DNA of 36,228 bases from a virus (lineage: Duplodnaviria > Caudoviricetes). Shown piece by piece: positions 2,677 to 14,883 of the stretch. The notes beneath the pieces were generated by a model. That model saw only the letters and a program-made list of their open reading frames with translations, searched no databases and was not told where the DNA came from. Each line of letters starts with the position of its first letter. The first letter of the stretch is position 1. The translations under genes and the position numbers were made by a program. Where the stretch lies: IMG/VR virus record IMGVR_UViG_3300022670_000109, positions 1 to 36,228 of that record; one strand, written 5' to 3'.

Positions 2677-2680
2677 GTGA
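2513..2680 (+). CDS. Nested alternative-frame small membrane protein (55 aa)
   Basis: MGTLYETGFHFITSWMMWLEIIVFTIIILVK...RRIVK*; G-run upstream as possible RBS; its TGA overlaps the GTG at 2677. Confidence 0.45.
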   Translation: MGTLYETGFHFITSWMMWLEIIVFTIIILVKISEKTDMINLLSQALMRIWRRIVK

Positions 2681-2898
2681 CAGGTAAAGCAACAATCGCA
2701 GTAACGGCAAACGCAATCGGCAACGGTGCAGGAGCAGGCGCAATAGGTGGCGGCGGCATATTATATATAATGGGACAAAACGCCCCCGCTATTGGTGCTA
2801 TATGCGTTATTATTGGTATAGTCGCGTCTCTTGTTTTTAAAACTATCGGGTATCTTGAATTAAAACGTCATCATAGGGAATTGGAGAAAGACAAATGA
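2677..2898 (+). CDS. Putative holin-like small membrane protein
   Basis: Gly-rich N-terminus, TM helix, charged C-terminus; next to a holin-like gene. Confidence 0.5.
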   Translation: MTGKATIAVTANAIGNGAGAGAIGGGGILYIMGQNAPAIGAICVIIGIVASLVFKTIGYLELKRHHRELEKDK

Positions 2899-3389
2899 TA
2901 CTTAGTATTCTCGGTAAACTTCCTAAGCTTGTAAAAGCCATCACAGGTGGCGATAAATCCCTACTAGGGCGAGCGATAGACGCTGCGAAGGTTATAACGG
3001 GCATGGATAACGAATCTGATGCTGTAGACGCCTTAAAAGCCGACCCTGAGAAAATGTATCAATATCAAATGGCGTTACTTGCTGATAAACATATTCCTGA
3101 TAGGCTTGACCTTGATAATACCAAAGACGCAAGGGATATGTACAAAAAGGTTAACCATGACCGAGCCGATGAAATAGCGGGTCATGTTATGGCGTGGAAT
3201 TTACCAATAATTGTTGTTATGGTTATTTTAAATATATTGGTTGTTCAGTTTATTGAGGGTGGGGCGTTAATAGCCATTGCATCAAACTTTATAGGCATGG
3301 CAATGAAGCAATTAATGAGCGAACGACAAACTGTAATGAATTTCTTTTTTGGTAGTTCTATGGGTTCTAAAGACAAGGATATGTCATGA
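2895..3389 (+). CDS. Putative holin (3TM/GTA-holin-like)
   Basis: ALKADPE..., D.KDAR.M, two TM helices and C-terminal FFFGSS.GS.DK pattern. Confidence 0.65.
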   Translation: MILSILGKLPKLVKAITGGDKSLLGRAIDAAKVITGMDNESDAVDALKADPEKMYQYQMALLADKHIPDRLDLDNTKDARDMYKKVNHDRADEIAGHVMAWNLPIIVVMVILNILVVQFIEGGALIAIASNFIGMAMKQLMSERQTVMNFFFGSSMGSKDKDMS

Positions 3390-3673
3390 AAATAGACATT
3401 AAAGCAATATCAATAGCATGTGGAATACTTCTACCAATTGGAGCAACGGCTGGGGCTGTTTACGCTTTTGCTGATGATGTTCTATACCTTCAGAGTGAAG
3501 CCGATATTCACCTAGCACAAGATAGTAACCGTATATGCAGAGAAGACAGGGCTGAATTAATAGACCTTGAGCGTTATATAGCGTCATTACAGCCCCCTAT
3601 CCCTAGTTACTTGTATGATCAACTTGCTATGTTAGAACAAAGCGTTGCTACTCATTGCGCCAGCCGCGCTTAA
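3386..3673 (+). CDS. Hypothetical membrane-anchored protein
   Basis: N-terminal hydrophobic helix; ATGA coupling. Confidence 0.6.
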   Translation: MKIDIKAISIACGILLPIGATAGAVYAFADDVLYLQSEADIHLAQDSNRICREDRAELIDLERYIASLQPPIPSYLYDQLAMLEQSVATHCASRA

Positions 3674-3804
3674 TAAGCTGAACGTATCGACCACGACATA
3701 CAAAGACATACTATAACTGACAGGCATAAAAGAACCTTCCACATATAGAACCACCCGACCCGGGCAAGCGTATCAAGCTTTTCCATTTCTTCCTCAAAGG
3801 TCAT
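3670..3804 (-). CDS. Small membrane protein (44 aa)
   Basis: Hand translation MTFEEEMEKLDTLARVGWFYMWKVLLCLSVIVCLCMSWSIRSAY*; ATGA overlap with the upstream gene. Confidence 0.55.
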   Translation of the reverse strand: MTFEEEMEKLDTLARVGWFYMWKVLLCLSVIVCLCMSWSIRSAY

Positions 3805-3956
3805 CTCATTCCCATCCTTATTTTCTCAAGCTCTATCTTTGAATCATGCGTTGACTTGTTGATGTCTTTTAATTCGTCTGAAATAAAGAATAGCATTAGT
3901 ACAATAATTAATCCTATGCCCCATGAGATAAGCTGCGCGATAATATCATCTTTCAT
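3801..3956 (-). CDS. Small membrane protein (51 aa), cassette gene
   Basis: MKDDIIAQLISWGIGLIIVLMLFF...; GGAG RBS; TAATG overlap; follows the site at 3983. Confidence 0.65.
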   Translation of the reverse strand: MKDDIIAQLISWGIGLIIVLMLFFISDELKDINKSTHDSKIELEKIRMGMR

Positions 3957-4168
3957 TATTTTTCTCCCGTTGTTTGTTTTGGAGCGTTAAGTTCTTGCAA
4001 AGCCTTATAAGCGGCCCTTATAATTGGCTTACCGTTTAATTCTGGATATGGCCCCGTAGCGTCCGTGATGCTTTCTATGAAATCACGCAGTCGCTTGTTC
4101 TCATGAGCGAGGTGTTCAAGCTGTCCCATTTGTTCGCCTATAATTCTATCCATTTCAAAGTCACTCAT
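3956..4168 (-). CDS. Hypothetical cassette protein
   Basis: Start moved to MSDFE (GAGGAG RBS); ends ELNAPKQTTGEK. Confidence 0.7.
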   Translation of the reverse strand: MSDFEMDRIIGEQMGQLEHLAHENKRLRDFIESITDATGPYPELNGKPIIRAAYKALQELNAPKQTTGEK

Positions 4169-4379
4169 CAGTCTTCTCCTCACGCAATTCATCAATAAAT
4201 TTATACAATTCAATTTGATCGTTAAGTTGTTTCAAATCGAATACATAAGTTCCAGGCAACGCTTCCATCAATATACCAATGACCTTCTCTGTAATCTGCG
4301 TTTGTTTTTTAAGACCATCCTGCAACTTGCATATTTCTTTTTGCAGTCGCACAATATTTCTATCTTTATTTGCTAACAT
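4161..4379 (-). CDS. Hypothetical coiled-coil cassette protein
   Basis: Start MLANK, after the site at 4396 and a GGGAG RBS. Confidence 0.7.
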   Translation of the reverse strand: MLANKDRNIVRLQKEICKLQDGLKKQTQITEKVIGILMEALPGTYVFDLKQLNDQIELYKFIDELREEKTDE

Positions 4380-4560
4380 CGTCTTCACTCCCTTGAACGT
4401 CTGGTTGTTGCAAAACTCCAAGATTTCTATTCTCATGAAGTTGTAGAATGATATTTTCTAAGTACTCAAAACTTTCAGGGTCAAGGCTTTCAACACCCAT
4501 CCAATAGACTGCTTCGAGAATGGATTTTTCCATATTCTTTTTTGGTTCTGATTTAACCAT
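4366..4560 (-). CDS. Hypothetical cassette protein
   Basis: AAGGA RBS; ends QQPDVQGSEDDVSK. Confidence 0.7.
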   Translation of the reverse strand: MVKSEPKKNMEKSILEAVYWMGVESLDPESFEYLENIILQLHENRNLGVLQQPDVQGSEDDVSK

Positions 4561-4563
4561 TTT

Positions 4564-4812
4564 TCAATCCTTTCTAACGTTAAGTTTTGATTTCTCAACA
4601 CTCATTTCGTGAATATCATTGAAGGCGTCTTGCCAATCTGTATATCCACAGCGTAACGCTTTTTCTTTAACGATATTCCAGCCGTGTAAATCAGCAAACT
4701 TATAATATTTATCAACAACTAATCCAAAGACGTATTGACCTAGATAGAAAACGCCTATACCCATAATTAAATCTGCGGCGATATAGTGCATCCAGTAATG
4801 TAAATTTTCCAT
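4564..4812 (-). CDS. Hypothetical membrane cassette protein
   Basis: One TM helix; ends KLNVRKD. Confidence 0.7.
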   Translation of the reverse strand: MENLHYWMHYIAADLIMGIGVFYLGQYVFGLVVDKYYKFADLHGWNIVKEKALRCGYTDWQDAFNDIHEMSVEKSKLNVRKD

Positions 4813-4814
4813 GT

Positions 4815-5018
4815 TTAATCCTTCTCTGTTGTTTGGGGAACGTCTAGTTCTTTCAATTGATCTGAAATGTCATTATCTATATCGACCCACATATCACGCA
4901 ATCGACTGTAATCTTGTAAATATGCTGGAGGCAATATGTCAGCCATAAGACTAAACATCTCATCTATATAATCAGTAGTTACTGATATTCTCATCTCTAA
5001 CAGGTCTATCTTACTCAT
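4815..5018 (-). CDS. Hypothetical cassette protein
   Basis: Start MSKID with GGAGG RBS; ends ELDVPQTTEKD. Confidence 0.7.
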   Translation of the reverse strand: MSKIDLLEMRISVTTDYIDEMFSLMADILPPAYLQDYSRLRDMWVDIDNDISDQLKELDVPQTTEKD

Positions 5019-5202
5019 TTGAACCTCCATCGTTTGAAACGTCTGGTATTGCATTAATAACGCATTTTTGATTGCGAGGTAGTTCCGCTTCACAAGCATC
5101 AATGGCGGCATGGTATTTTCCCGCTACACCAATAGGAGATACAATTAGTCCGATGAAAATTATCATCCCAAGTGCAACAATACCAATAATTATGTTATCC
5201 AT
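5011..5202 (-). CDS. Hypothetical membrane cassette protein
   Basis: Start MDNII, TM helix, CEAELPRNQKC; ends IPDVSNDGGSNE. Confidence 0.7.
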   Translation of the reverse strand: MDNIIIGIVALGMIIFIGLIVSPIGVAGKYHAAIDACEAELPRNQKCVINAIPDVSNDGGSNE

Positions 5203-5491
5203 TTTCTTCACTCCCTTGAACGTTAAGTATTTCATTTGTCATGTTTTTAGCACTATTTACTGGACAACTCACGTTAAGTTCACGTTTATAGTTATTGAGA
5301 GAGTTCCTAATATTGTTCTCCCAATCGTTCATTTCTGCGAGAAACTTTTTATGACTAGCAATTGCCTTTTGTTTTGTTTGCCAAATATGAAGTATCTGTG
5401 CTTCTAAGAAATGCGGCATTAGCCTTTGACGCTCTTCATACGGCATATCATTCCATAGGTGGTCAAAATCGTGCGGCGGTAATTTATTCAT
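5195..5491 (-). CDS. Hypothetical cassette protein (reads through two sites)
   Basis: Start MNKLP with GGAG RBS; ends ELNV...ILNVQGSEENG. Confidence 0.7.
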   Translation of the reverse strand: MNKLPPHDFDHLWNDMPYEERQRLMPHFLEAQILHIWQTKQKAIASHKKFLAEMNDWENNIRNSLNNYKRELNVSCPVNSAKNMTNEILNVQGSEENG

Positions 5492-5690
5492 CTGAGCTAC
5501 TCCGAACGTATAGTTTTTGCAAATCAACTGGTTCAACCTCATCAAGTTCGTCTAATACCGCTTGAAGTTTGATTGCTCCAGCCATATCTAAATTACCTTT
5601 AATATGAGTGCCTCGTTTAACCCAAAAACCCTTCTTATTCATGTGCCAATTACGTGTACATAAATATTTTACAACCGTTCTATCGTCCAT
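5484..5690 (-). CDS. Hypothetical cassette protein
   Basis: Start MDDRT; ends KLYVRSSSDE. Confidence 0.65.
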   Translation of the reverse strand: MDDRTVVKYLCTRNWHMNKKGFWVKRGTHIKGNLDMAGAIKLQAVLDELDEVEPVDLQKLYVRSSSDE

Positions 5691-5976
5691 TACTTTGTGC
5701 CCCCTCGACCATCTTAATAAGTTTTTCCACAGTACTGTAAGAAATATACATGTGAGTATCATCAATTGATTTAGATGCTATTTTTGCTTTAATTTTTTCA
5801 ATGTGTTTTTGCGTTAACATAATTTGATCCTTTTCTGGTTGTTGGGGAACGTTAAGTTTTGCAATTGCTAATAAGACCTCCGCATATATTAAATACACTA
5901 CCGATGATAATAAGAGGGAAAGCAAAACCACCACGCCATATGATAGGGGCGCGTAATTATCAATAATATCAATCAT
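5680..5976 (-). CDS. In-frame fusion of two units (internal RBS and ATG at 5820)
   Basis: TM N-half, then KLNVPQQPEKDQI, then MLTQKH...; site at 5848 and AAGGA RBS lie inside the ORF. Confidence 0.65.
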   Translation of the reverse strand: MIDIIDNYAPLSYGVVVLLSLLLSSVVYLIYAEVLLAIAKLNVPQQPEKDQIMLTQKHIEKIKAKIASKSIDDTHMYISYSTVEKLIKMVEGAQSNGR

Positions 5977-6191
5977 GATCTGTCATCCTGTTTTGGAACG
6001 TTAAGTAAATCGGCTTTGTGCCATAATCGGTTCCAAAGATACCTATCATCTTTACCTTCTTCCGTTATGCAAACTCCATCTTTAGTCATGGACACAAAAA
6101 TGAACTTAGAGCCATTTACGTGATAGTGGTTACAGCCGCATATAGACCATTCATCTAGTACGCCGTTTTGCCAAGGTAATTTTCTAACCAT
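5973..6191 (-). CDS. Hypothetical cassette protein
   Basis: LPW...WSICG.NHY motif; ends LLNVPKQDDRS. Confidence 0.7.
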   Translation of the reverse strand: MVRKLPWQNGVLDEWSICGCNHYHVNGSKFIFVSMTKDGVCITEEGKDDRYLWNRLWHKADLLNVPKQDDRS

Positions 6192-6480
6192 TGTCTGAGC
6201 CTTTCAGGGGAACGTGTAGTAATTCACCAGTGACGTATTTATTAACTAGCTCGACAATATTGGATAGGACTTCACCGCTTTCAATTTTATCAATCCAGAT
6301 AACAACATCGTCTTCGCTCGGATGATAAATAGAGTTTTTCACCTCCATATTATCCGAACCTATTTCGATGTGTTTTTTTCTCGGCTTTAAAAGAACGCCG
6401 TGACGACCATCCATTGTGAAATGCGCCACATCAACCATGCCTTTACCAAGTTCAATTTCTTTACATTTAAGTTCAATCAT
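6184..6480 (-). CDS. Hypothetical cassette protein
   Basis: Ends LLHVPLKGSDNG. Confidence 0.7.
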   Translation of the reverse strand: MIELKCKEIELGKGMVDVAHFTMDGRHGVLLKPRKKHIEIGSDNMEVKNSIYHPSEDDVVIWIDKIESGEVLSNIVELVNKYVTGELLHVPLKGSDNG

Positions 6481-6643
6481 CGTCTAATATTTCCTTTTCT
6501 ACGATTTTAAGGACGCCAATAGCCAAGGCTAAAGGCATTTCTTCACTATAACTGTAAATAACAGTTTTTATTTCTTCACACATTTCGGCGGCTTTATAAC
6601 AAGACCGCTTACTTGCTAGGTGAGCAACATCAAATGGTTTCAT
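6473..6643 (-). CDS. Hypothetical cassette protein (56 aa, not in ORF track)
   Basis: MKPFDVAHLASKRSCYKAAEMCEEIK...EKEILDDD*; GGAG RBS after the site at 6661. Confidence 0.7.
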   Translation of the reverse strand: MKPFDVAHLASKRSCYKAAEMCEEIKTVIYSYSEEMPLALAIGVLKIVEKEILDDD

Positions 6644-6876
6644 GGGCTTTTCTCCGTTGGAACGTGTAGTATTTCATTATCGTCTGCTACACTTTTAATT
6701 TCATCATCTGTTGCTAAGACAACACGCTTGACATTTATCAAGGCCGTTTTCATTTTACAACCCCATGCTTCAACAATGTCCTGCGCGCAATACATTCGTG
6801 CTTGTCCTCTATTTTTACCGTAATAAAGTAATGGGGGATAACCCTTCACTTCTACGCGAAAACCTCTAGTTTCCAT
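6640..6876 (-). CDS. Hypothetical cassette protein
   Basis: Start METRG with AAGGA RBS; ends ILHVPTEKSP. Confidence 0.7.
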   Translation of the reverse strand: METRGFRVEVKGYPPLLYYGKNRGQARMYCAQDIVEAWGCKMKTALINVKRVVLATDDEIKSVADDNEILHVPTEKSP

Positions 6877-7144
6877 TATCAGTCCTTTCACTAACGTTAA
6901 GTTTTTGCAAATTATCTATCTTGCCAAGAAGATCATCCACTTCTATTTCTAGTTTTTTGAATGAGTTTTGAACTACAGATTTTTGGAAAATTACCTGCCG
7001 TAAGATAAAATCTCTTTTCTGTTGTTCATCGACATCTTTAATATGGTCGTCGCAAAAGCACCTGTAATCACCAAGAGGGCCACAAGTAAAATCTCTTTGA
7101 TGAACGCCCTCTTTTTCGCAACCTTTTGTGTCACACTGGCTCAT
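6866..7144 (-). CDS. Cys/His-rich (possible Zn-binding) coiled-coil cassette protein
   Basis: C-x4-C ... CFCDDH; ends KLNVSERTDNGN. Confidence 0.65.
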   Translation of the reverse strand: MSQCDTKGCEKEGVHQRDFTCGPLGDYRCFCDDHIKDVDEQQKRDFILRQVIFQKSVVQNSFKKLEIEVDDLLGKIDNLQKLNVSERTDNGN

Positions 7145-7488
7145 TTCTTCACCTCACTAACGTGTAGTAATTCACGTCTTATGATTTCTTTATGAAAATT
7201 AGCCAGTACAGCCGCCGAAGTAATAATATGATGTTTGACTTTATCCATGTCATTATCCCAATATGCTTTAGCTAATTTGCCGAGCAGAAAATTCAACACC
7301 ATAAACCAATCAGAAAAAGATTTCTTCTGGTCGTGTTCTTCTCCCCATCGTTCTTTTTGGTGTGCAGCTTCAATACATAATCCATGACGAAAATCAACAA
7401 TTTCAGGGCAGTTAATAAGCTCTTTTAACCGCTTGTTCTCTGCCTCAAGCTCATCAACATAATTTTGTGTATATATTAACCTAACCAT
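7141..7488 (-). CDS. Cassette protein, possibly MazG-like all-alpha fold
   Basis: EAAHQKERWG..HD..K...DW...GKL.KA...HIITSAAVL pattern; function uncertain. Confidence 0.45.
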   Translation of the reverse strand: MVRLIYTQNYVDELEAENKRLKELINCPEIVDFRHGLCIEAAHQKERWGEEHDQKKSFSDWFMVLNFLLGKLAKAYWDNDMDKVKHHIITSAAVLANFHKEIIRRELLHVSEVKK

Positions 7489-7739
7489 CACTCACCGCCT
7501 TTCTTAACGTCTGGTGAATATAAAAACTGCCATTTCTTGTAACTGCTTCTGTACATAACCTTACCGTCTTTTTTTAATAGTTGCATGGCTGATGATATTT
7601 CCCGGTCTGTCTCTTGACTTATGCCGCGACTAACAGCCAAAATATAAAGGTCATTAAAGTCTTGAAGGTGGCTGCACTCGCCCTTATCTCTTGCAATAAT
7701 GTGATTATCCCATATTTCTTTAGCTAATTCTCTACTCAT
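7488..7739 (-). CDS. Hypothetical (possibly winged-helix) protein, first gene after the resolvase-like gene
   Basis: ATGA overlap; ends SPDVKKGGE. Confidence 0.6.
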   Translation of the reverse strand: MSRELAKEIWDNHIIARDKGECSHLQDFNDLYILAVSRGISQETDREISSAMQLLKKDGKVMYRSSYKKWQFLYSPDVKKGGE

Positions 7740-8266
7740 TTCCCTTTACCCTTCTTCTTTTGATTAGTAAAATATTTACCGTTCATAATGTAGCTAACAG
7801 CGCGTGTTGATGTATCAAAGTATATAGCCGCTTCTGCTTGTGTGTGCTTCTCTTGCACATACTTCTTGATTAGCTCGGCACGTTCAGGCGTTATATCCAA
7901 TTTGCGGCCTATACGCTCGCCCATGCTACCATTTGCAGACCTTATATCCTTATGACCTTGAAGCACCCCTGCACCCTCTTTACAATCAACATTCAATTCT
8001 TTGTGTAATAGACGGATAAACGCGCCTTGTTCTTTTAGCTTATCAATAGTTTCATCATAAGCCGCTACAGTACCCAACACGGCACCATTCCAAACAACCA
8101 ATGTTAAACCCTCACGACAAGACCCAATAGCCTCTTGAAGCCCTTCATGTTGATAATATATTCTCTCTTCTTCAACACCCTGATCCATCAAAAGTTTCTT
8201 TTGATCGGCGGCGGTCATTTTCAAATTAGACCTATCTTGCACATATCCGATTAAAGTATTTTCCAT
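7736..8266 (-). CDS. Degenerate small serine resolvase/invertase-fold protein with C-terminal HTH
   Basis: LIGY...Q...L...GVEEERIY...GL.EAI..CREG.TLVVW...LG...L.E.G..I follows the resolvase pattern; GR + HTH (TQAEAAIYFDTSTRAVSYI). The canonical YxRxS and DRLGR motifs are altered (YVQDRS, AVLGT). Confidence 0.7.
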   Translation of the reverse strand: MENTLIGYVQDRSNLKMTAADQKKLLMDQGVEEERIYYQHEGLQEAIGSCREGLTLVVWNGAVLGTVAAYDETIDKLKEQGAFIRLLHKELNVDCKEGAGVLQGHKDIRSANGSMGERIGRKLDITPERAELIKKYVQEKHTQAEAAIYFDTSTRAVSYIMNGKYFTNQKKKGKGK

Positions 8267-8308
8267 TTATTTCACCTTGTTTCATAATTAGCTATTGTAA
8301 TTGAAATC

Positions 8309-8337
8309 AGTTTATGTAATATTACAAATTAAGTCAA
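8309..8337 (-). promoter_or_regulatory. Sigma70 promoter for the resolvase-like gene and left array, with a palindromic operator
   Basis: TTGACT-N17-TAAACT on the - strand; perfect palindrome TGTAATATTACA at 8315-8326 in the spacer. Confidence 0.65.
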
Positions 8338-8380
8338 CAACAATTTGAAATTACTTTACGCCCAAACAGAAAGACGCACT

Positions 8381-8938
8381 ATGACAACGAATAAAGAATT
8401 GTTAAAAATCATTAAGCCTTTGGCGTCTGCTAGGTATCAGGTTGATATTTTTTGGTACGATTTAGAGAGGTCGCTTTCTTATTATGAAAAAGAGTACGGT
8501 GGGCTTGATGTTAACCCTGATTTTCAAAGGGGGCATGTGTGGACATTAAGACAACAAGAACACTTTGTTGAGAACGTGCTTAGAGGTATTGTATCTAGCT
8601 CTGGGCTTGTCATACAGTGGAATTGTCCTAATTGGGATGAATACTATTATAAAGGCCCGATGCCTTTAGGTTTCCAGTGTATAGATGGGCTTCAAAGGTT
8701 AACCGCTATTAGAGGGTTCGTAGCAGGAAAGGTAAAGCCGTTTGGACTTTCTAAGGATGATTTAACTAGAACAGATTTTGATGTACGGCGTTGCATGTGG
8801 ACTTTTAAATTTGCAATACACAATCTCACAAGCAGAAAAGATTTATTAAATCATTACCTAGATTTAAACACTGGTGGAACACAACACACCACAGAAGAAA
8901 TCGACAAGGTAAAACAACTATTAGAAAACGTAACTTAA
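8381..8938 (+). CDS. DUF262 (GmrS/ParB-like) domain protein
   Basis: NPDFQRGHVW and IDGLQRLTAI motifs; the stop TAA lies within the junction site. Confidence 0.8.
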   Translation: MTTNKELLKIIKPLASARYQVDIFWYDLERSLSYYEKEYGGLDVNPDFQRGHVWTLRQQEHFVENVLRGIVSSSGLVIQWNCPNWDEYYYKGPMPLGFQCIDGLQRLTAIRGFVAGKVKPFGLSKDDLTRTDFDVRRCMWTFKFAIHNLTSRKDLLNHYLDLNTGGTQHTTEEIDKVKQLLENVT

Positions 8939-8976
8939 CGCCCGTTTTTATTGGGCCTTATATAAAGGGAAAGAAA

Positions 8977-9378
8977 ATGAAATGCCAAAAGTGCAAATGT
9001 GAACAACTTGTTACTATGCATGGTGATAGCGTAAATATATGTTTAACTGTTCATCACGACTTGAAAACAGCCTTAGATCATTATGACATGTTTAGGTCAA
9101 GATATGGCTATGAGGGGGCCGAACGCAACGCTTCTGACCCATCTTTCGCGTCTAAATATCTTATACGCTTAGTTAAAGGATTGGCAAGTATGAGTATGCA
9201 TTCAATAGCAATGACCGTTCACAGCTCTGACAATTTATTGAGTTATCAATATATAAAAGACAGCGGTTATTTCACTTCATTAATGGGATTGTTTTATTTC
9301 AATGGTAGTGAACAAGCGGTAAAATCTGTTTTGCAGAAAGCGTGGAAACGTGGCGGCAAAAGAAACAAACAAATTTAA
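8977..9378 (+). CDS. Hypothetical cassette protein
   Basis: N-terminal CxxC; lies between two sites. Confidence 0.65.
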   Translation: MKCQKCKCEQLVTMHGDSVNICLTVHHDLKTALDHYDMFRSRYGYEGAERNASDPSFASKYLIRLVKGLASMSMHSIAMTVHSSDNLLSYQYIKDSGYFTSLMGLFYFNGSEQAVKSVLQKAWKRGGKRNKQI

Positions 9379-9410
9379 CAACTTAACGCCCATATGAAAG
9401 GCAGAGAAAA

Positions 9411-9737
9411 ATGAGAACGGAAATTGGAAAGATTAAAAACGTGAATTTTGGTCACGGAGGTTATCAAGACGTTATGATAGGCATTACCTTTGATTTAGGT
9501 AGTGACGGGTGGGGTGTTACTGATTTTTGGGGTGAATGGTCTACGGAAGTAACTGAATATACTAAGTGGACAGATGAAAGCAGAATTACAAAGCTTGGTG
9601 AAACTGTTATGAGAATTTCACAATTATTAAAAGATGCAAAAGTTGACAAGGTGAATGATTTAAATGGCATCCCTATTGAAGTTTCATTCGATGGTAACAT
9701 ACTTAAATCATGGCGCATTTTAACAGAAGTAATTTAA
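9411..9737 (+). CDS. Hypothetical cassette protein
   Basis: GKI..V.FG.GGYQD pattern; lies between two sites. Confidence 0.75.
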   Translation: MRTEIGKIKNVNFGHGGYQDVMIGITFDLGSDGWGVTDFWGEWSTEVTEYTKWTDESRITKLGETVMRISQLLKDAKVDKVNDLNGIPIEVSFDGNILKSWRILTEVI

Positions 9738-9770
9738 CAAACTTAACGCCCATCGGGCAGGGAGAATAAA

Positions 9771-9956
9771 ATGGAATATATTGAAGGAAAGACCACAAAC
9801 GGTGATCGTTTTTCACTACGCAAAGACGCGATAGAATGTTATGAGCAAATCGATGATGGTCGGAATATAGGTGTCAGAATTGTTATGAAATCAGGCGCGG
9901 TTTTCAGAACTGTTTTATATGATTTTGACGGCTTGAAACGAGCATTAGAAACTTAA
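9771..9956 (+). CDS. Hypothetical cassette protein
   Basis: GGGAG RBS; lies between two sites. Confidence 0.7.
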   Translation: MEYIEGKTTNGDRFSLRKDAIECYEQIDDGRNIGVRIVMKSGAVFRTVLYDFDGLKRALET

Positions 9957-10092
9957 CACTATACGCCCGTGGTTGAAAGTTTATAAATATTGGGTTGCGG
10001 ATATTTCATAGCTCGAGATAGACTTTTGTAAAAGCCATCCCGCTAACCACGGGTAAATCAATACTTTCCGCCCGTCTTATGGGCTAAACAAC

Positions 10093-14108: not shown

Positions 14109-14305
14109 ATACAACAATACCGGTTCCAGAAATACACCCACGATGTGAGATTGGCGTTACTGTTTCTAAGATGAAGGTTGGCGGTTCAATATTTGTTAAA
14201 AGCCATAACAAGCGTCAACAGGCAGCTAATGCGCTAAGAAAGCATGGATGGGGAGTTATAACACGGAAGTATCCAGATGGTTATAGAGTTTGGCGGGTGG
14301 CATGA
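14099..14305 (+). CDS. Small putative DNA-binding protein
   Basis: ID..IPVP...M.VG.S.FV...R...GYRVWR pattern common in phages. Confidence 0.6.
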   Translation: MHIDTTIPVPEIHPRCEIGVTVSKMKVGGSIFVKSHNKRQQAANALRKHGWGVITRKYPDGYRVWRVA

Positions 14306-14883
14306 CTTTTGATGAAGCGATAGCAATAAGGCCAGTTCAAGGGTATAGGGTTATCTATGCAGACCCTCCGTGGAATTTTGAAAACTGGTCTGAGAAGGGT
14401 GAGCAAAAGAACGCATCACAGCATTATGAGTGTATGGATATTGAAGATATTCACAATATGAAAGTTGAGGCTATTGCCAGCACAAATTGTATATTGTTCT
14501 TATGGGTTACTGACCCGCTATTACAACAAGGAATCGAAACTATAAAGCGTTGGGGATTCGAATATAAAACGGTAGGATTCACATGGCATAAAACAAGACC
14601 TAGCAAGAAAGAATTTCTAGGACAGGGATATTATACAAGAGGTAATCCTGAAATGTGTCTTATTGGCAAGCGGGGAAGCATGGGAGAGCCTAATGATAGA
14701 GGTGTACGGCAATATCAAGCTCATGACATTAGAGAACATAGCCGCAAGCCTGATGAGATTAGGAACTTGATAGCAAAAATGTATGATGGACCAAGGATTG
14801 AGTTATTCGCTCGCGAGAAATTCGACGGGTGGGAATCATGGGGTAATCAGACGGAGAAATTCAATGATCAACCGCATAAATGA
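14302..14883 (+). CDS. MT-A70-family adenine methyltransferase
   Basis: YADPPW, LFLWVT, WGFEYKT, HSRKPD, IELFAR, GWESWGNQ. Confidence 0.92.
   Translation: MTFDEAIAIRPVQGYRVIYADPPWNFENWSEKGEQKNASQHYECMDIEDIHNMKVEAIASTNCILFLWVTDPLLQQGIETIKRWGFEYKTVGFTWHKTRPSKKEFLGQGYYTRGNPEMCLIGKRGSMGEPNDRGVRQYQAHDIREHSRKPDEIRNLIAKMYDGPRIELFAREKFDGWESWGNQTEKFNDQPHK

What the first reader, a model, noticed from the sequence alone, without database searches (positions are those of the whole stretch)
3956..7739. Site is always in the same frame: cassette genes borrow their stop codons from the next unit
Seen: all 15 left-arm sites lie inside the upstream ORF in one frame, giving L-N-A, P-D-V, L-N-V, L-D-V, P-D-V, L-N-V, L-N-V, L-Y-V, L-N-V, L-N-V, L-H-V, L-H-V, L-N-V, L-H-V, P-D-V. 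Wobble positions are fixed (xxA CYW NAC) while the amino acid varies (N/D/H/Y), so selection acts on DNA/RNA rather than peptide. In 13 of 15 cases the stop then falls on or within a few codons of the next ATG (TAATG, ATGA, 8-14-nt overlaps or 2-3-nt gaps). Inference: a universal junction frame would keep any cassette order translationally coupled, and each protein's C-terminal tail would be set by its neighbour.
Basis: partly seen in the sequence, partly recalled or inferred. Interest (0 to 1): 0.85.

Follow-up and report, generated by a model that had tools for sequence, protein, structure and literature searches.

The report
Frame-locked swap joints between phage genes
In this uncultured phage a row of small genes each runs, in the same reading frame, through one short shared DNA word, related phages change protein tails and neighbours at that word, and the word likely serves as a swap point that lets genes be reshuffled without breaking their translation.

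Summary
On the minus strand of 3992-7515, ACYWNAC-G occurs 16 times (0.69 expected), always read xxA CYW NAC GNN by the upstream gene. All 15 in-frame [LP][NDHY][VA] peptides use these codons, so the constraint is on nucleic acid, not peptide. Stops lie at the next ATG in 22 of 23 joints from three phages (3 and 8 in the other frames). Relatives change at the word: two contigs break within A-C-G-T-T, and 4 of 4 homologues that keep the motif have a different tail. One correction: the tail comes from a reusable leader, not from the next gene, because the same leader precedes unrelated genes. The sites are not attC (no hairpin). The array is one of two back-to-back arms around a Gin-like invertase gene that lacks catalytic residues; one relative has an intact invertase there. 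Best reading: conserved linkers exchanged by short-homology recombination and kept in frame by selection (0.5). Main rival: an invertase-driven cassette system (0.3). No reaction is shown.

The parts
3801..7739 (-). Left arm: operon of 17-18 small genes joined by in-frame joints
7736..8266 (-). Gin/resolvase-fold gene heading the left arm; catalytic Ser and the DRL motif are not kept
8267..8352 (.). Divergent control region, nearly identical in L017 and partly kept in L025 and L026; includes a sigma-70-like match for the left arm (8337-8309)
7506..7515 (-). Joint core, P-D-V, tail PDVKKGGE; same leader type in L017 and L022
7159..7168 (-). Joint core, L-H-V; homologue P0125 changes tail after LHVS
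6893..6902 (-). Joint core, L-N-V; this joint is matched as short pieces only in two X3 contigs, twice in one of them
6661..6670 (-). Joint core, L-H-V; an X3 contig with 1 difference in 195 nt stops matching after GTT; homologue P0122 changes tail after LHV
6211..6220 (-). Joint core, L-H-V; the core-to-ATG module sits between unrelated flanks in an X3 contig
5997..6006 (-). Joint core, L-N-V; homologue P0007 has L-D-V and another tail
5848..5857 (-). Joint core, L-N-V, no stop: in-frame fusion here; the same module ends in an ATGA overlap before another gene in an X3 contig
5505..5514 (-). Joint core, L-Y-V
5270..5279 (-). Joint core, L-N-V (GTG), start of a 51-nt mini-unit; relatives end this gene here with a 4585-type tail
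5219..5228 (-). Joint core, L-N-V; shares 17 nt of leader with joint 4405
5038..5047 (-). Joint core, P-D-V
4839..4848 (-). Joint core, L-D-V
4576..4585 (-). Joint core, L-N-V, tail LNVRKD; same leader type in L040, P0007 and P0127
4396..4405 (-). Joint core, P-D-V
4218..4227 (-).
3983..3992 (-). Last joint core, L-N-A; an X1 contig shares the downstream unit and switches left half at N|AC
8345..9968 (+). Right arm: four genes with five ACTWWAC-GCCC joints (8353, 8933, 9381, 9741, 9958). Four follow a gene's end, at or after its stop; three of the five begin a small hairpin

Best explanation
The word ACYWNAC-GTT is the core of a reusable joint at which related phages change protein tails and neighbours, and it likely works as a short-homology crossover point, kept in one reading frame by selection so that any swap would still give the upstream gene a stop beside the next start. 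Shown: the repeat, the fixed frame and codons, stops tuned to that frame, breakpoints at the core, and re-use of left halves and leaders with unrelated genes. Inferred: exchange is done by general short-homology recombination (phage Erf/exonuclease, or host or co-infecting functions) at two conserved words, the core and the ribosome site/ATG, so that gene body, core and leader reassort. CYW-NAC-GTT is the only frame in which no core variant can be a stop (follows from the consensus). The catalytically altered invertase likely acts as a DNA-binding regulator of the divergent promoters. The enzyme is not identified.
For: Left and right halves of 24 joints from three phages reassort independently: Mantel r -0.03; 15 of 276 pairs share 9 or more nt to the right (null 0.23) and 6 share 11 or more nt to the left (null 0.32). 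Contig X1 record 6 matches 3887-3987 (8 differences) and switches to another left half at N|AC; X3 record 13 matches 6661-6855 (1 difference) and stops after GTT (pieces repeated). Homologues P0007, P0122, P0125 and P0127 keep the motif and differ in tail, 4 of 4. Window-L017 DNA similarity ends at the first right-arm joint; L017-L022 similarity ends at the last one. Breakpoints also fall at the ribosome site or ATG: X3 records matching 5827-5857, 6189-6222 and 5285-5491; one fixed cut site does not explain these. The window encodes Erf, YqaJ, NinB and RusA families. RecET acts on 5-13 bp at low efficiency (PMC2327257, passage). Linker-mediated shuffling is described for T4-type phages (PMC2839356).
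Against: The shared core is only about 10 nt, shorter than the <50-bp patches cited for efficient phage recombination. The complete genome G001 carries the joints, but no Erf/Red-type family was found among the 25 of its ORFs scanned. L022, found by the joint word alone, has an intact Gin-like invertase at the head of its array, which this model treats as incidental. Why the core is conserved at all, also in the untranslated right arm, is not explained by homology alone. The breakpoints come from short contigs laid at 85% likeness, X1 may be the window's own source, and the loose end at 6661 was not displayed. 95 of 96 homologues of 5973-6191 lack the motif, so most copies of that cargo live outside such arrays.
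Confidence: 0.5

Rival explanations
1. A Gin-family serine invertase cuts at the joints, giving an integron-like cassette platform; phages with the altered copy would be frozen or served in trans.
For: An invertase-family gene heads the array in 3 of 3 genomes where the head is seen (window, L017, L022). L022 was found by the DNA word and its enzyme keeps the catalytic motif (Pfam Resolvase E 3e-42; best solved match a DNA invertase, E 1e-42). L025 and L026 carry AC-GCCC joints in the arm opposite the altered invertase. The two arms' sites are inverted about the gene, and GTT and GCC halves are arm-specific. A weak dyad is centred on TT or CC (z 4.8 left, 3.0 right, of 56 centres tested per arm).
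Against: The dyad is 3.9 of 12 pairs and falls to z 1.7 after removing repeated leaders. The enzyme lacks the catalytic Ser and DRL motif in the window and L017. L025 and L026 have the altered gene but no repeated left-arm sites. The L022 enzyme is only distantly related to the altered family (hhalign probability 14). Breakpoints at ATG and the CT centre at 3992, which changed upstream partner, fit a central-dinucleotide rule poorly (rule recalled).
Confidence: 0.3
2. The word is primarily an RNA or regulatory signal (processing site, protein-binding site or start-associated sequence); breakpoints gather there only because it is conserved.
For: It lies 23-38 nt upstream of each next ATG. The same core occurs untranslated in the right arm, followed by small hairpins (mean -6.0 against -1.5 kcal/mol in the left arm). 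SAS elements are a precedent (PMC3203893, passages).
Against: Distance to the ATG varies while the frame of the upstream gene is fixed, which a signal for the downstream gene does not need. No Rfam family matches. No RNA data were examined.
Confidence: 0.12
3. The joints are relics of backward integron attC sites that lost their hairpin, or hairpin-less secondary sites of a host integron integrase.
For: Same Asn-frame crossover geometry as earlier unchecked notes on backward phage integrons. The observed breakpoint interval includes A|C and G|TT. IntI1 can recombine shortened attI sites (PMC12901181, abstract).
Against: No hairpin: folding z between -2.2 and +2.3 in 56 windows, and a partner box downstream in only 1 of 14. 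Only 8 of 16 cores have AAC, the complement of the GTT of the R box. No integron integrase is among the ORFs scanned.
Confidence: 0.06
4. L/P-x-V is a peptide tag (degron or sorting signal).
For: The motif is always in frame near the C-terminus. Two NAT synonymous variants occur in relatives.
Against: Codons are fixed in 15 of 15, the middle residue varies, the same core is untranslated in the right arm, and 95 of 96 homologues lack it.
Confidence: 0.02

Closest known systems
Linker-mediated modular shuffling: PeSL cassettes of T4-type phages and the Botstein-Campbell linker model (PMC2839356; abstract and Discussion read)
   Same: Conserved short elements between small non-essential genes mark where genes are gained, lost and exchanged; no dedicated recombinase is established.
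   Different: PeSLs are intergenic promoter plus stem-loop units. These joints are about 10-35 nt, have no promoter or hairpin in the left arm, lie inside the coding sequence in a fixed frame, and supply the stop codon.
Integron cassette arrays and phage CALINs (PMC9892861; abstract and section 3.4 read)
   Same: Row of one-gene units in one orientation, with a GTT at the junction followed by a leader and ATG.
   Different: No attC hairpin or paired R boxes, variable base at the position of the conserved triplet, no IntI seen; genes read through the site.
Gin/Hin/Cin/Min serine invertase systems (site features recalled; protein relation)
   Same: Invertase-family gene beside inverted, in-frame sites that change protein C-termini.
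   Different: Sites here are many, direct within an arm, separate whole unrelated genes and have only weak symmetry; the enzyme is catalytically altered in 2 of 3 carriers; no mixing between arms is seen.
Start-associated sequences of Cluster K mycobacteriophages (PMC3203893; passages read)
   Same: Asymmetric short repeat, one orientation, upstream of starts of non-structural genes.
   Different: SAS overlap the ribosome site 3-7 bp from the start in wide intergenic gaps. These cores lie 23-38 nt upstream, inside the previous gene, in fixed frame, and coincide with breakpoints.

Membership tests
Integron/CALIN | attC folds into a hairpin with paired R''/R' boxes | tested here: not met
   no folding better than shuffles; partner box downstream in 1 of 14, upstream in 3 of 14
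Integron/CALIN | Conserved GTTRRRY / RYYYAAC core | tested here: not met
   AAC in 8 of 16 cores; bases after GTT are not RRRY as a rule
Integron/CALIN | IntI integrase in cis or from the host | tested here: inconclusive
   none among ORFs scanned; the window record is 63% complete; host unknown
Serine invertase/resolvase system | Catalytically intact serine recombinase | tested here: inconclusive
   not met in window and L017; met by sequence in L022
Serine invertase/resolvase system | Sites of two inverted ~12-bp arms around a central dinucleotide (recalled) | tested here: inconclusive
   weak dyad on +2/+3, z 4.8 and 3.0, falling to 1.7 after de-duplication
Serine invertase/resolvase system | Enzyme-dependent recombination at the site | not testable with these tools
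   needs an assay
Linker-type modular shuffling (PeSL-like) | Conserved element at gene boundaries coincides with exchange points between relatives | tested here: met
Linker-type modular shuffling (PeSL-like) | Each element carries a sigma-70 promoter and a terminator stem-loop (PeSL proper) | tested here: not met
   no promoter enrichment (29 against 22.4 +/- 5.2), left-arm leaders barely fold
Linker-type modular shuffling (PeSL-like) | Circular intermediates | tested here: inconclusive
   no joint row in table 5; contigs drop rare forms
Start-associated sequences | Repeat overlaps the ribosome site within a few bases of the start, in wide intergenic gaps | tested here: not met
   core lies 23-38 nt upstream of the ATG, inside the previous ORF

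The most novel reading that the evidence does not exclude
A serine-invertase counterpart of the integron in phages: a Gin-like enzyme, intact in some members and reduced to a DNA-binding protein in others, captures and reorders small early genes at 10-nt coding joints on two divergent arms, and the joint supplies every cargo's stop codon and coupling.
Probability: 0.3. Interest if true: 0.9.

Novelty: new variant of a known kind. Interest (0 to 1): 0.66.

Why it matters
Phage early regions are mosaics of tiny unknown genes, and whether mosaic boundaries come from dedicated linkers or from random joining plus selection is an old question. Here a defined coding joint coincides with breakpoints between close relatives and carries the stop codon, so the linker idea becomes testable at base resolution. 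The relative with an intact invertase gives a concrete enzyme-site pair to assay. A practical point: the C-terminal 6-12 residues of these proteins belong to the joint and not to the protein family.

Tried and rejected
Single-protein scans of viral contigs with 7736-8266 and 7141-7488 found nothing; an exact 20-nt joint found nothing. The metagenome scan returned 15 loci; those I could read were ordinary resolvases without arrays (8 of 15 were printed and the output was cut). Three of 5 hits (L018-L020) and all 9 genome hits lacked arrays and were dropped as chance. The integrase scan returned only the two known phages. Cultured phages: no match to the region, to P0001 or to P0006. P0103 matched 603 records below 60% identity; P0124 matched 14, and the one region opened showed the match inside a larger ORF and was not analysed further. 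Pfam and PHROGs name none of the left-arm cargo. Rfam gave nothing. attC hairpin rejected. Peptide tag rejected. Run X3 held 0.02 of the words, which is no evidence by itself; only laid contigs were used. Literature searches returned no paper describing hairpin-less in-frame joints or arrays beside an altered invertase; the library lacks most subscription papers, and no supplements were read.
Full report
Setting. The window is a virus record, 63% complete by CheckV, with terminase, major head protein, endolysin, Erf, YqaJ, NinB and RusA families. The one run that holds it is labelled marine sediment metagenome and may be its source. The finding lies in a minus-strand operon of small genes, 3801-7739, that converges on the genes ending at 3673. 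It is headed by 7736-8266 and faces away from a plus-strand arm, 8345-9968.

Observation. ACY[ATC]NACG occurs 16 times on the minus strand of 3900-7800 against 0.69 in shuffles, always in the frame xxA CYW NAC GNN of the upstream ORF. A peptide-first search found 15 [LP][NDHY][VA] in the 18 array ORFs, all with these codons, against background shares of 0.31-0.51 per position. The same core occurs five times in the right arm as ACTWWAC-GCCC: once before the first gene and four times at or after a stop codon.

Relatives with the same joints. L017 (complete genome G001, with other structural genes and an integrase) has a 74% identical head gene, a nearly identical control region and both arms, with no cargo shared by tblastx; DNA similarity ends at the first right-arm joint. 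L022, found by a joint pattern, has four in-frame joints behind an intact invertase, and a single site with no gene on the opposite arm. L040, at a contig end beside small membrane-protein genes like those at window 2677-3673 (likeness by eye), has three in-frame joints. Three of 5 hits and 9 of 9 were dropped as chance.

Are the joints exchange points? In 24 joints (14 window, 6 L017, 4 L022; 5279 and 4227 left out), left and right halves reassort independently, and both are re-used far above chance. In laid contigs, X1 record 6 shares the unit downstream of joint 3992 and switches left half at N|AC. X3 record 13 shares the gene upstream of joint 6670 with 1 difference in 195 nt and stops after GTT; its loose end was not displayed. 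An X3 contig joins the gene at 5285-5491 to a joint of the 4585 type. This places one crossover interval within A-C-G-T-T. At protein level, P0122, P0125, P0127 and P0007 keep the motif and differ in tail, 4 of 4. Against generality, 95 of 96 homologues of 5973-6191 lack the motif, and 10 of 10 further cargo proteins are singletons in their clusters.

The same leader precedes different genes: joints 5228 and 4405 share 17 nt, and one leader type precedes five genes in three phages. X3 contigs carry 5827-5857 and 6189-6222 with unrelated sequence on both sides, and the 5285-5491 gene with a different leader and a variant core upstream. The tail therefore belongs to the core-to-ATG leader, and there is a second exchange point at the ribosome site or ATG.

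Frame and coupling. For 23 joints (L017 12374 left out for an ambiguous next start; L017 11578 kept although its upstream gene stops before it), the first stop falls within -3 to +14 of the ATG in 22 cases in the observed frame, 3 and 8 in the others, and 14.8 on average after shuffling leaders. All-by-all swaps keep 484 of 506 coupled against 35 and 168; the first figure follows by construction from a fixed frame. Overlapping stops and starts are also the rule at joint-free junctions of this phage, so the fixed frame is the unusual part, not the coupling.

The head gene. It folds like gamma-delta/Tn3 resolvase (mean pLDDT 53.6, Foldseek E 1e-5), and its family profile hits DNA invertases best (E 3.5e-6), but the catalytic Ser and the DRL motif are not kept. 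Two more distant members, L025 and L026, head divergent small-gene operons with no repeated left-arm site; both have repeated AC-GCCC-hairpin joints in the opposite arm and share the upstream control block. The L022 enzyme is a canonical Gin-like invertase only distantly related to that family. A weak dyad centred on TT (left) or CC (right) appears in both arms but falls to z 1.7 after de-duplication.

Mechanism. Shown: repeat, frame, tuning, breakpoints and re-use. Inferred and preferred (0.5): conserved linkers exchanged by short-homology recombination, with selection keeping the frame. Breakpoints at two different conserved words and the altered enzyme favour this. The short core, the lack of a detected annealing protein among 25 G001 ORFs scanned and the intact invertase in L022 count against it. 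Rival (0.3): invertase-catalysed cassette exchange. An RNA signal (0.12), an attC relic (0.06; no hairpin) and a peptide tag (0.02) follow.

Known systems. Closest are PeSL/linker shuffling (PMC2839356: abstract and Discussion), phage CALINs (PMC9892861: abstract and section 3.4), SAS (PMC3203893: passages), shortened attI cassettes (PMC12901181: abstract) and recombination on very short homologies (PMC2327257: four passages). Invertase site geometry is recalled. Ten searches found no paper on this arrangement; no supplements were read. Earlier unchecked notes of this scan describe arrays around altered resolvases and frame-locked backward integrons in other genomes; they are leads, not support.

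Verdict. A real feature, a new variant of linker-type shuffling, interest 0.66. The invertase reading is 0.3 likely and would merit 0.9.

Noticed in passing
window 8345-9968 (+), L017 9375-9914, L022 near 6018, L025 8974-9901, L026 8142-9891: The arm opposite the invertase-like gene has repeated AC-GCCC-loop-GGGC hairpin joints before ribosome sites; one scores as an antisense terminator (9759-9747). The PeSL paper mentions T4 deletions at GGGC/GCCC.
   Followed up: partly
L022 5272-5916 (-): Intact Gin-like invertase heading an array of in-frame joints, with a gene-free site on the opposite arm.
   Followed up: partly
window 8267-8352: A control block upstream of the altered invertase is conserved in four loci, a candidate binding site.
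   Followed up: partly
window 5228-5279: 51-nt mini-unit between two joints that lengthens the tail; relatives lack it.
   Followed up: partly
window 5680-5976: In-frame fusion across joint 5857; the same joint ends in an ATGA overlap in an X3 contig.
   Followed up: partly
window 6473-6495: Decayed joint (L-D-D, two mismatches to the consensus) at the end of 6473-6643.
   Followed up: no
window 7141-7488: Homologue P0125 also differs in its first ~20 residues, a possible internal swap point.
   Followed up: no
window 8381-8938: GmrSD N-terminal domain gene (PF03235, E 1e-10) as first right-arm cargo.
   Followed up: no
L017 10525-11553: 342-aa topoisomerase-like cargo (phrog_6247) that keeps its own stop before an out-of-frame joint remnant.
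   Followed up: partly
window 9966-9974 and 10045-10053: 9-bp inverted repeat 70 nt apart after the last right-arm joint (read).
   Followed up: no
P0021, P0077 (homologues of window 5973-6191): Tails with D-N-V and N-N-S stretches that recall backward attC tails; no DNA context available.
   Followed up: no
window 14302-14883; L037 1793-2086: DNA methyltransferase in the window; acyl carrier protein family gene in G001.
   Followed up: no
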